A DNA stretch of 35,797 nt from a virus (IMGVR_UViG_2563366950_000001); one strand, 5' to 3'. Positions 18,766 to 19,323 are shown, counted from the first letter of the stretch. The notes: a model not told the origin generated them from the letters alone. Numbers and translations: made by a program.

Positions 18766-19190
18766 ACCGGTTGCTGCTGGTTGTGCTGGCGTTATTACTG
18801 GCGGCGCTGGGCTGGCAGACGTGGCGGCTGGCTGATGCCAGCCAGACCATCAGCACGCAGTCAGACGAGCTGCAGAGCAAAAGCCAGGCACTGGCAAAGA
18901 GCAACAGCCAGCTTATTAGCCTGTCCATTCTGACTGAAACCAATAACCGGGAGCAGGCGCGGCTCTATGCCGAAGCAGAACAGACCAGCGCGCTGCTGAG
19001 ACAACGACAACACCGGATCGAGGAGCTGAAACGTGAGAACGAGGATTTACGCCGCTGGGCTGATACTCCTTTGCCTGCTGACATTATCCGGCTGCGGGAA
19101 CGTCCGACACTCACCGGAGGTGCAGCTTACCGTCAGTGGTTGTCCGCGAGTGACGCCGTGTCGGCTGGAGCAGGCAACGCCGCGCACTAA
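18762..19190 (+). CDS. lysB: LysB (Rz-like inner-membrane spanin)
   Basis: 142 aa with N-terminal TM segment (LLLVVLALLLAALGW) followed by a coiled-coil-like region. Confidence 0.75.
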   Translation: MNRLLLVVLALLLAALGWQTWRLADASQTISTQSDELQSKSQALAKSNSQLISLSILTETNNREQARLYAEAEQTSALLRQRQHRIEELKRENEDLRRWADTPLPADIIRLRERPTLTGGAAYRQWLSASDAVSAGAGNAAH

Positions 19191-19323
19191 CGGTGATCTG
19201 GACGCGTTGCTGGATGAAACGGAGGCCGCCTGGGCGGTCTGTGCAGACAAAGTGGACATGATTATTGCGTGTCAGGAGCGAAACAGTGAACAAACCACAA
19301 TCCCTGCGCCACGCCCTCAATAA
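19033..19323 (+). CDS. lysC: LysC (Rz1-like outer-membrane lipoprotein spanin), embedded out of frame in the 3' end of lysB
   Basis: 96 aa; lipoprotein signal MRTRIYAAGLILLCLLTLSGC with lipobox LSGC; overlaps lysB in a different frame. Confidence 0.65.
   Translation: MRTRIYAAGLILLCLLTLSGCGNVRHSPEVQLTVSGCPRVTPCRLEQATPRTNGDLDALLDETEAAWAVCADKVDMIIACQERNSEQTTIPAPRPQ

What the first reader, a model, noticed from the sequence alone, without database searches (positions are those of the whole stretch)
19033..19323. Embedded out-of-frame lipoprotein gene (LysC/Rz1-type) spanning the lysB-R junction
A 96-aa ORF with a lipoprotein signal and lipobox (LSGC) starts inside lysB in another frame and runs into the start of R. 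This is the two-genes-in-one-locus spanin arrangement and confirms a complete lysis cassette.
Basis: partly seen in the sequence, partly recalled or inferred. Interest (0 to 1): 0.22.

Follow-up and report, generated by a model that had tools for sequence, protein, structure and literature searches.

The report
P2-type LysC outer-membrane spanin gene
This is the ordinary, already catalogued lysC gene of a P2-like prophage (identical to one in E. coli CFT073): a small outer-membrane lipoprotein that pairs with LysB to break the outer membrane at the end of phage lysis, read from a frame that overlaps two neighbouring genes.

Summary
A 96-codon ORF (19033..19323, +, GTG start, Shine-Dalgarno GAGGAG 7 nt upstream) begins in the +1 frame inside lysB (18762..19190). 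It ends 38 nt into tail gene R (19286..19717). It encodes a lipoprotein signal with lipobox LSGC and the acylated Cys at residue 21.

ORF length alone proves nothing, because this window holds many longer chance ORFs. Four other results show it is a real gene:
- It scores far above the curated cut-offs of Pfam LysC and NCBIfam P2_Rz1.
- It is the only one of 1003 candidate starts in six frames with a strict lipoprotein signal.
- The frame, GTG start and LSGC are kept in 78 of 78 distinct close relatives.
- The 95 nt covered by lysC alone vary mainly at lysC third codon positions.

Two corrections apply. In spanin terms the layout is "overlapped" (P2 type), not "embedded" (lambda type). The protein also has no detectable sequence similarity to lambda Rz1.

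The locus is 100% identical to E. coli CFT073, where RefSeq already names it lysC, though with a start that looks too short. The finding is already known and of low interest.

The parts
19020..19025 (+). Shine-Dalgarno GAGGAG for lysC, inside the lysB coding sequence, 7 nt upstream of the GTG start
   Evidence: Read directly from the sequence. The same GAGGA(G/A)CTGAAAC-GTG context occurs in Fels-2, SEN8, phiCTX and the Shewanella phage.
19033..19323 (+). lysC, the o-spanin (outer-membrane lipoprotein subunit), 96 aa including the signal peptide
   Evidence: ORF. Pfam PF23793, 55.6 bits. NCBIfam NF038368 equivalog, 123.5 bits. PHROG 456/952 'Rz-like spanin'. 42% identity to P2 LysC, E 5e-26. 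Frame intact in 78 of 78 distinct relatives.
19033..19092 (+). Signal peptide, residues 1-20 (n-region MRTR, h-region IYAAGLILLCLLTL), predicted to be removed by signal peptidase II
   Evidence: Hydropathy segment 3-24. It is the only strict lipoprotein signal among 1003 candidate starts in the window. Cleavage is inferred, not shown.
19084..19095 (+). Lipobox L-S-G-C; Cys21 (19093-19095) is the predicted acylated N-terminus of mature LysC, and the +2 residue is Gly
   Evidence: Sequence. Cys21 is invariant in 14 diverse LysC proteins. LSGC is present in 78 of 78 close relatives.
19096..19320 (+). Periplasmic domain of mature LysC (mature protein is 76 aa counting Cys21): 7 Pro and four conserved Cys (C37, C43, C70, C80). 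The last 12 residues are poorly conserved and are encoded in the overlap with R
   Evidence: Alignment A1; composition and Cys counts; 10 of the last 12 residues vary among close relatives.
18762..19190 (+). lysB, the i-spanin partner: N-terminal transmembrane segment (about residues 1-21), helical periplasmic domain rich in charged residues, no Cys. Its residues 91-142 share DNA with LysC residues 1-52
   Evidence: NCBIfam TIGR03495, 175.5 bits; PHROG 89; hydropathy and Cys count.
19286..19717 (+). R, the tail completion protein; its first 38 nt overlap the 3' end of lysC in another frame
   Evidence: Pfam PF06891, 160.2 bits, profile position 1 at residue 1. R is annotated at the same position in relatives.
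17678..17893 (+). Holin, 71 aa, two hydrophobic segments (HP1 / phage 21 S class)
   Evidence: Pfam PF16080 and PF04971; PHROG 20; hydropathy.
17874..18386 (+). Endolysin (GH24 lysozyme) with an N-terminal weakly hydrophobic segment that resembles a signal-anchor-release (SAR) domain
   Evidence: Pfam PF00959, 134.8 bits. Best solved relatives are 1xjt and 1xju, E 2.9e-26. Hydrophobic segment 3-27; Cys9, Cys43 and Cys50.
18388..18765 (+). LysA-like multi-pass membrane protein (putative antiholin); its stop overlaps the lysB start (ATGA)
   Evidence: PHROG 162; NCBIfam NF038378; hydropathy.

Best explanation
The ORF is lysC, the outer-membrane (o-spanin) subunit of a P2-type two-component spanin, and LysB is its inner-membrane (i-spanin) partner. 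Shown from sequence: translation can start at GTG 19033 from a Shine-Dalgarno site inside lysB, and the product has a lipoprotein signal with lipobox LSGC. Inferred from established lipoprotein biogenesis: the precursor is exported by Sec, diacylglyceryl-modified on Cys21 by Lgt, cleaved by signal peptidase II between G20 and C21, N-acylated by Lnt, and sent to the inner leaflet of the outer membrane by Lol, because the +2 residue is Gly and not Asp. Shown from sequence: LysB is anchored in the inner membrane by its N-terminal transmembrane segment. Inferred by analogy with lambda Rz/Rz1 and the P2 prototype: the periplasmic domains of the two proteins bind, forming complexes that span the periplasm through the peptidoglycan mesh. 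After the holin fires and the endolysin degrades the wall, the freed complexes cluster and collapse. This fuses the inner and outer membranes and removes the last barrier to virion release. LysB has no cysteine and mature LysC has four invariant ones, so any stabilising disulfide links must lie in LysC.
For: Family membership: NF038368 'Rz1-like lysis system protein LysC' at 123.5 bits (cut-off 27) and TIGR03495 LysB at 175.5 bits (cut-off 92.75); Pfam LysC at 55.6 bits (cut-off 27); PHROG spanin families. Architecture: the layout matches annotated lysB/lysC/R in Wphi (291-nt lysC, 38-nt overlap with R), Fels-2, SEN8, phiCTX, ST79 and Menos. It also matches the published description of P2 lysC, with the start +1 inside lysB and the stop inside R (PMC3091744). 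Breadth: tblastn finds relatives in 276 phage records from Escherichia, Klebsiella, Salmonella, Yersinia, Pseudomonas, Burkholderia and Shewanella phages, and at least 590 IMG/VR stretches match. Conservation: Cys21, Cys37, Cys43 and Cys70 are invariant and Cys80 is present in 13 of 14 diverse sequences. Frame, GTG and LSGC are kept in 78 of 78 distinct close relatives. Selection in the lysC frame: in the 95 nt covered by lysC alone, diversity is 0.057 at codon position 3 against 0.0145 and 0.0125 at positions 1 and 2. Variable sites are 19/32 against 16/63, Fisher p = 0.0017. Diversity at lysB third positions falls from 0.158 outside the overlap to 0.042 inside it, p = 0.00018. Context: holin, endolysin and the LysA-like gene lie immediately upstream. 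RefSeq already names this gene lysC in the 100% identical E. coli CFT073 locus. P2 LysB/LysC is listed as the experimentally tested overlapped spanin (PMC6139136).
Against: Nothing here tests function directly. Lipidation, outer-membrane sorting, LysB-LysC binding and the lysis phenotype are all inferred. It was not checked whether this prophage is inducible. The Fisher tests treat sites and related sequences as independent, so the p-values are optimistic. Public annotations disagree on the start: RefSeq CFT073 starts at 19075 (CTG, 82 aa), and some phage records annotate only 38-52-aa C-terminal pieces. No solved structure resembles LysC.
Confidence: 0.94

Rival explanations
1. The ORF is a chance open frame in the +1 frame of lysB and R and makes no protein.
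For: Off-frame and antisense ORFs of similar or greater length are common in this window. Examples are 17883..18176 (-, 97 aa), 19426..19821 (-, 131 aa) and 19632..20189 (-, 185 aa). Several gene callers omitted the gene in relatives.
Against: HMM matches lie far above curated cut-offs. It is the only strict lipoprotein signal among 1003 candidate starts. The frame is open in every relative examined, down to 36% identity and across several host genera. Substitutions show three-base periodicity in the lysC frame where no other gene overlaps.
Confidence: 0.01
2. The real gene is shorter than the reader's ORF. It would start at CTG 19075 (RefSeq CFT073, 82 aa) or at TTG 19207 (38 aa, as in NC_049342), so the product would not be a lipoprotein with a full signal peptide.
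For: These starts appear in public annotation. PHROG 952 is a 62-position profile that matches only LysC residues 36-95, which shows that truncated models are widespread.
Against: A start at 19075 leaves only six residues before the lipobox Cys, with no basic n-region, and it has no Shine-Dalgarno site upstream. GTG 19033 has GAGGAG at ideal spacing and aligns with the ATG starts of P2 and Wphi lysC, where the frame opens exactly at that ATG. The NCBIfam profile aligns from residue 5. Cys21, Cys37 and Cys43, all upstream of the 38-aa model, are invariant. lysB third positions are constrained throughout the overlap. Kongari et al. report 64 o-spanins with a wrong start and 196 unannotated among 528 systems (PMC6139136).
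Confidence: 0.03
3. LysC is mainly a regulator of lysis timing (the historical 'lysis regulatory protein' label) and not a structural part of the outer-membrane disruption machinery.
For: Many records label LysA, LysB and LysC as 'lysis regulatory protein'. From my own recollection, not read here: early P2 genetics described lysA and lysB mutants as timing mutants, and lysC alleles suppress a growth defect on an rpoC host (Markov et al. 2004, cited in PMC3091744).
Against: The outer-membrane lipoprotein topology, the inner-membrane partner and the position as the last genes of the cassette are the defining spanin layout. Kongari et al. list P2 LysB/LysC as an experimentally tested overlapped spanin. 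Nothing in the sequence suggests a regulatory domain.
Confidence: 0.02

Closest known systems
E. coli CFT073 prophage lysC (C_RS30030, WP_223677307.1) and the lysC genes of Wadgaonvirus-like phages (Escherichia phage 500465-1, Klebsiella phage 4LV2017)
   Same: The CFT073 locus is 100% identical in DNA over 18700-19400, and 1023 of 5426 complete E. coli genomes hold a near match. The phages are 96-97% identical at the protein level. Neighbours and order are the same.
   Different: Only the annotated start differs. RefSeq CFT073 begins at CTG 19075 (82 aa) and NC_049342 annotates a 38-aa piece. The full 96-aa lipoprotein reading is better supported.
Bacteriophage P2 / Wphi LysC with LysB (prototype 'overlapped' two-component spanin)
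   Same: Same length (96 aa). The start is +1 inside lysB and the stop is 38 nt into R. Cys21 lipobox and four conserved periplasmic Cys are present. Identity is 42%, E 5e-26. LysB is 36% identical over residues 59-133.
   Different: The lipobox is LSGC here and CAGC in P2. The start is GTG here and ATG in P2. The lysB overlap is 158 nt here and 146 nt in Wphi. The upstream holin and endolysin are of a different type: a 71-aa two-segment holin and a P1 Lyz-like endolysin, in place of P2 Y and K.
Lambda Rz1 with Rz (prototype 'embedded' spanin)
   Same: Same logic: an outer-membrane lipoprotein read from the +1 frame of the gene for its inner-membrane partner, as the last genes of the lysis cassette. 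The presumed function is the same.
   Different: There is no detectable sequence similarity: LysC against Rz1 gives E 0.25, and LysB against Rz gives E 0.035 over the transmembrane segment only. Rz1 lies wholly inside Rz, whereas lysC runs past lysB into R. By my own count on the lambda sequence fetched, mature Rz1 is 40 aa with 10 Pro (25%) and one periplasmic Cys. Mature LysC is 76 aa with 9% Pro and four periplasmic Cys.
T4 PseT.2 / PseT.3 ('separated' spanin)
   Same: The i-spanin has no Cys and the periplasmic Cys are all in the o-spanin. In T4 these Cys are essential (PMC6139136).
   Different: The T4 genes do not overlap and lie away from the holin and endolysin genes. No sequence comparison with T4 was made here.

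Membership tests
P2 LysC family (Pfam PF23793; NCBIfam NF038368 P2_Rz1) | Profile score above the curated cut-off | tested here: met
   NF038368 at 123.5 bits against 27, residues 5-88 on profile positions 2-85 of 85. PF23793 at 55.6 bits against 27.
P2 LysC family (Pfam PF23793; NCBIfam NF038368 P2_Rz1) | N-terminal lipoprotein signal with a lipobox Cys at about residue 21 | tested here: met
   MRTR + IYAAGLILLCLLTL + LSGC, with Cys21. Cys21 is invariant in alignment A1. It is the unique hit of a six-frame lipoprotein-signal scan. No dedicated predictor such as LipoP or SignalP was available.
P2 LysC family (Pfam PF23793; NCBIfam NF038368 P2_Rz1) | Gene starts in the +1 frame inside lysB and ends beyond the lysB stop, inside R | tested here: met
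   Frame offsets are +1 and +1, with overlaps of 158 nt and 38 nt. Wphi and Fels-2 have the same layout, as does the published P2 description.
P2 LysC family (Pfam PF23793; NCBIfam NF038368 P2_Rz1) | Conserved periplasmic cysteines (C37, C43, C70, C80) | tested here: met
   Present in 78 of 78 close relatives. C37, C43 and C70 are invariant and C80 is present in 13 of 14 diverse sequences.
Two-component spanin (functional class, criteria of Kongari et al. 2018) | [quoted passage not shown] | tested here: met
   LysB matches TIGR03495 at 175.5 bits and has a hydrophobic segment at residues 1-21.
Two-component spanin (functional class, criteria of Kongari et al. 2018) | Located in a lysis cassette with a holin and an endolysin | tested here: met
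   The holin (17678-17893), endolysin (17874-18386) and LysA-like gene (18388-18765) are contiguous upstream.
Two-component spanin (functional class, criteria of Kongari et al. 2018) | Lipid modification, outer-membrane localisation and complex formation with the i-spanin | not testable with these tools
   Needs labelling, fractionation and pull-down experiments.
Two-component spanin (functional class, criteria of Kongari et al. 2018) | Loss of function blocks lysis in the presence of millimolar divalent cations, giving spherical cells | not testable with these tools
   This is an experiment. lysB-silent mutations were designed for it.
Lambda Rz1 family ('embedded' o-spanin) | Sequence similarity to lambda Rz1 | tested here: not met
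   BLASTP E = 0.25. No Rz1-family hit in the Pfam scan at E up to 0.01.
Lambda Rz1 family ('embedded' o-spanin) | o-spanin gene contained wholly within the i-spanin gene | tested here: not met
   lysC ends 133 nt after the lysB stop. Lambda Rz1 (46186-46368) lies inside Rz (45966-46427).
Unimolecular spanin (T1 gp11 type) | Lipoprotein signal plus a C-terminal transmembrane segment in one protein | tested here: not met
   The only hydrophobic segment of LysC is residues 3-24, and the C-terminus is polar.

The most novel reading that the evidence does not exclude
LysB has no cysteine and mature LysC has four invariant periplasmic cysteines. This P2-type spanin may therefore depend entirely on disulfide chemistry within the o-spanin, for example intramolecular pairs (C37-C43, C70-C80) that isomerise into intermolecular links once LysB is bound, as proposed for T4 PseT.2. 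That would add a redox-controlled step to outer-membrane disruption. Separately, the unconserved 12-residue LysC tail encoded inside R may exist only to couple translation of R to the lysis genes.
Probability: 0.25. Interest if true: 0.25.

Novelty: already known. Interest (0 to 1): 0.06.

Why it matters
The biology is not new. P2 LysB/LysC is a textbook overlapped spanin, and RefSeq already labels this exact gene as lysC. The practical value lies in annotation. Public records for this gene and its close relatives mostly carry truncated starts (82, 52 or 38 aa) or omit the gene. Those models remove the signal peptide and lipobox that define the protein. The full 96-aa reading from GTG 19033 is the one the evidence supports. 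It also confirms that this CFT073-type prophage keeps an intact five-gene lysis cassette.

Tried and rejected
- ORF length as evidence was rejected, because the window holds many longer chance ORFs.
- The sequence search of solved structures with LysC gave only noise: E at least 0.15, deoxyribose-phosphate aldolases.
- Direct comparison with lambda Rz1 and Rz found no meaningful similarity, so LysC is not filed in the lambda Rz1 family.
- Markov et al. 2004 (PMC438596), the primary lysC genetics paper, is not in the held library. It is cited only through PMC3091744.
- One paper search failed because a term was too short.
- I did not run the large protein-database searches or a structure prediction.
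- Ungapped placement of relatives failed for a few loci downstream in R (L007, L058, L066) or within lysB (L066, L069). Three loci have a lysC stop one codon earlier (L059, L060, L074). All seven were left out of the diversity statistics, although their lysC frames are intact.

Full report
**What is there**

The window holds an ORF at exactly 19033..19323 on the + strand, with a GTG start and 96 codons. Its product is MRTRIYAAGLILLCLLTLSGC|GNVRHSPEVQLTVSGCPRVTPCRLEQATPRTNGDLDALLDETEAAWAVCADKVDMIIACQERNSEQTTIPAPRPQ.

- The N-terminus has two arginines, a 14-residue hydrophobic core and the lipobox L-S-G-C, with Cys at residue 21.
- The frame opens one codon upstream (TGA AAC GTG). GTG 19033 is therefore the first possible start and the only canonical one that yields a signal peptide.
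- GAGGAG lies 7 nt upstream of the GTG.
- lysB occupies 18762..19190, and lysC is +1 relative to it, with a 158-nt overlap.
- R starts at GTG 19286, where the Pfam GpR profile aligns from its position 1. lysC therefore overlaps R by 38 nt, again with a +1 offset.
- lysB, lysC and R thus use the three forward frames in turn.

**Is it more than chance?**

ORF length alone is not. The same region has off-frame or antisense ORFs of 97, 131 and 185 aa. Three other tests are decisive.

1. Signal. I scanned all 1003 candidate starts in six frames with at least 50 codons to the stop. The filter required a strict lipobox with Cys at residues 15-30, a basic n-region, no acidic residue before the Cys, and a hydrophobic core. 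Only this ORF passed.
2. Profile matches.
   - NCBIfam NF038368 'Rz1-like lysis system protein LysC': 123.5 bits against a cut-off of 27, E 2.9e-36.
   - Pfam PF23793 LysC: 55.6 bits against a cut-off of 27.
   - PHROG 456 and 952, 'Rz-like spanin'.
3. Comparative evidence.
   - tblastn finds relatives in 276 phage records, from Escherichia, Klebsiella, Salmonella, Yersinia, Pseudomonas, Burkholderia and Shewanella phages.
   - At least 590 stretches in IMG/VR match.
   - In 14 diverse sequences (36-97% identity), M1, G9, L15, C21, C37, C43, N53, A66, C70, A71 and Q81 are invariant. C80 is present in 13 of 14.
   - Among 78 distinct close relatives the frame is open in all. Three of them end one codon earlier.
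   - All 78 keep the GTG start and LSGC.

**Selection acts in the lysC frame**

This analysis used 71 distinct sequences that align without gaps.

| Region | Codon frame | Diversity at positions 1 / 2 / 3 | Variable sites |
|---|---|---|---|
| 95 nt covered by lysC alone (19191-19285) | lysC | 0.0145 / 0.0125 / 0.057 | 7/32, 9/31, 19/32 |
| lysB outside the overlap | lysB | 0.085 / 0.089 / 0.158 | 44/91, 38/90, 65/90 |
| lysB inside the overlap | lysB | 0.055 / 0.029 / 0.042 | 22/52, 15/53, 21/53 |

- In the lysC-only stretch, position 3 varies more than positions 1 and 2 (Fisher p = 0.0017).
- lysB third positions are second positions in lysC. Their diversity drops from 0.158 outside the overlap to 0.042 inside it (variable sites 65/90 against 21/53, p = 0.00018).
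- In the 38-nt lysC/R overlap, variation follows R's third positions. In line with this, 10 of the last 12 LysC residues vary. This tail looks like a by-product of the overlap.
- The p-values ignore the relatedness of the sequences and are therefore optimistic. The direction of every contrast fits dual coding.

**What it is**

The partner LysB matches TIGR03495 at 175.5 bits against a cut-off of 92.75. It has an N-terminal hydrophobic segment, a charged helical periplasmic part and no cysteine.

Directly upstream lie three more lysis genes:
- a 71-aa holin with two hydrophobic segments (17678-17893);
- a GH24 endolysin (17874-18386);
- a LysA-like multi-pass membrane protein (18388-18765).

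The lysB/lysC/R layout is annotated in the same way in Wphi (lysC 291 nt, 38-nt overlap with R), Fels-2, SEN8, phiCTX, ST79 and Menos. It also matches the published description of P2: lysC starts +1 within lysB and stops out of frame in R (PMC3091744).

Kongari et al. define three architectures for two-component spanins (PMC6139136):
- embedded, as in lambda;
- overlapped, with P2 as the experimentally tested example;
- separated, as in T4.

This locus is overlapped.

**How it most likely works**

Shown by sequence:
- a Shine-Dalgarno site and GTG start inside lysB;
- a lipoprotein signal in LysC;
- a transmembrane anchor in LysB;
- the position of both genes at the end of a lysis cassette.

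Inferred from established lipoprotein biogenesis:
- export by Sec and Lgt acylation of Cys21;
- LspA cleavage after G20 and N-acylation by Lnt;
- Lol sorting to the outer membrane, because the +2 residue is Gly. It is Gly, Ala or Glu in relatives, never Asp.

Inferred by analogy with lambda Rz/Rz1 and P2:
- LysB and LysC bind across the periplasm.
- Mature LysC is 76 aa with 9% proline and four invariant periplasmic Cys, and LysB has none.
- Any covalent stabilisation must therefore be in LysC, as in the T4 pair, where the o-spanin cysteines are essential.

**Comparison with known systems**

- LysC is 42% identical to P2 LysC (E 5e-26). LysB is 36% identical to P2 LysB over residues 59-133.
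- Against lambda Rz1 there is no meaningful similarity (E 0.25). LysB against Rz matches only at the transmembrane segment (E 0.035).
- So LysC works like Rz1 but is not a member of the lambda Rz1 sequence family.
- It is not a unimolecular spanin, because it has no C-terminal transmembrane segment.
- No solved structure is related.

**Provenance and novelty**

- The right flank of the window (32500-35797) is 100% identical to E. coli CFT073 and covers an ogr-like gene, the RybB sRNA, ybjL, ybjM and grxA.
- The stretch 18700-19400 is 100% identical to CFT073. A near match occurs in 1023 of 5426 complete E. coli genomes.
- RefSeq already annotates 'lysC: Rz1-like lysis system protein LysC' there, with a note that it overlaps lysB substantially but is not fully embedded.
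- The gene is therefore already known.

The only point worth recording is annotation quality:
- The RefSeq CFT073 CDS starts at 19075, a CTG codon with no Shine-Dalgarno site. That start would leave six residues before the lipobox Cys.
- NC_049342 annotates a 38-aa fragment.
- A P2 assembly, PhiR44_1 and Midge annotate 52-aa fragments.
- Several records omit the gene.
- This is the problem Kongari et al. quantified: 196 o-spanins unannotated and 64 with a wrong start among 528 systems.

**Verdict**

Novelty is 'already known' and interest is low.

Noticed in passing
window 19075-19323, and relatives L001 2308-2424, L005/L006/L011 1033-1191: Public annotations of this gene use truncated starts. 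RefSeq CFT073 lysC begins at a CTG codon at 19075 (82 aa). NC_049342 annotates 38 aa. A P2 assembly, PhiR44_1 and Midge annotate 52 aa. All of these lose the signal peptide and lipobox. PHROG 952 (62 positions, matching LysC residues 36-95) seems to be built from such fragments.
   Followed up: yes
window 17678-18386: The holin and endolysin are not of the P2 Y/K type. The holin is 71 aa with two hydrophobic segments (Pfam HP1 and phage 21 S holin families). The endolysin's best solved relatives are 1xjt and 1xju, which I recall to be P1 Lyz. It has a Gly/Ala-rich weakly hydrophobic N-terminus (residues 3-27) containing Cys9, plus E41-G-C43...C50. This is the pattern of a signal-anchor-release endolysin with a caging disulfide. 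The cassette would then be a mosaic of a pinholin/SAR-endolysin pair with a P2-type spanin.
   Followed up: partly
window 18388-18765: The LysA-like protein (125 aa, multi-pass membrane protein, NCBIfam DNZ54_00345 family) is labelled 'endolysin' in PHROG 162 and in several RefSeq phage records. That label looks wrong for a membrane protein with no enzyme domain. Its stop overlaps the lysB start (ATGA).
   Followed up: partly
window 32500-35797: The right end of the window is host DNA, 100% identical to E. coli CFT073 (NC_004431.1 941831-945128). It contains the RybB sRNA at 33020-33098 (-; Rfam 105 bits), then ybjL, ybjM and grxA. The prophage's ogr-like gene (about 32725-32940) ends some 80 nt from the 3' end of rybB, so the attachment site may lie at or in the rybB terminator. 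The att repeats were not sought, because the window starts at the integrase stop codon.
   Followed up: partly
window 9198-11354: Two cargo ORFs lie between the replication gene (5773-8187) and the portal gene (11406-12443, -). ORF 10200-11354 (384 aa) has an N-terminal Hypoth_Ymh domain (Pfam, 82 bits) and matches PADLOC PD-Lambda-3_B (51 bits) and Aga_HEPN. ORF 9198-9980 (260 aa) matches no family. Together they are a candidate anti-phage defence pair in a P2-type variable hotspot.
   Followed up: partly
window 24551-25582 (-): A 343-aa Acyl_transf_3 family membrane acyltransferase (Pfam, 138.9 bits) is encoded on the opposite strand between the tail-fibre genes and the sheath gene. It is probably lysogenic-conversion cargo such as an O-antigen or LPS acetylase.
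   Followed up: no
window 2103-3029 (-): The CI-type repressor is 308 aa and shows two separate matches to the Phage_CI_repr helix-turn-helix domain plus the CI C-terminal domain. This suggests a duplicated or extended N-terminus compared with single-HTH 186-type repressors.
   Followed up: no
window 18762-19032 and relatives: The part of lysB that does not overlap lysC evolves fast at the protein level. Diversity at codon positions 1 and 2 (0.085 and 0.089) is more than half that at position 3 (0.158), and 52 of 90 residues vary among close relatives. LysC is better conserved than LysB between this phage and P2 (42% over 92 aa against 36% over 75 aa).
   Followed up: partly
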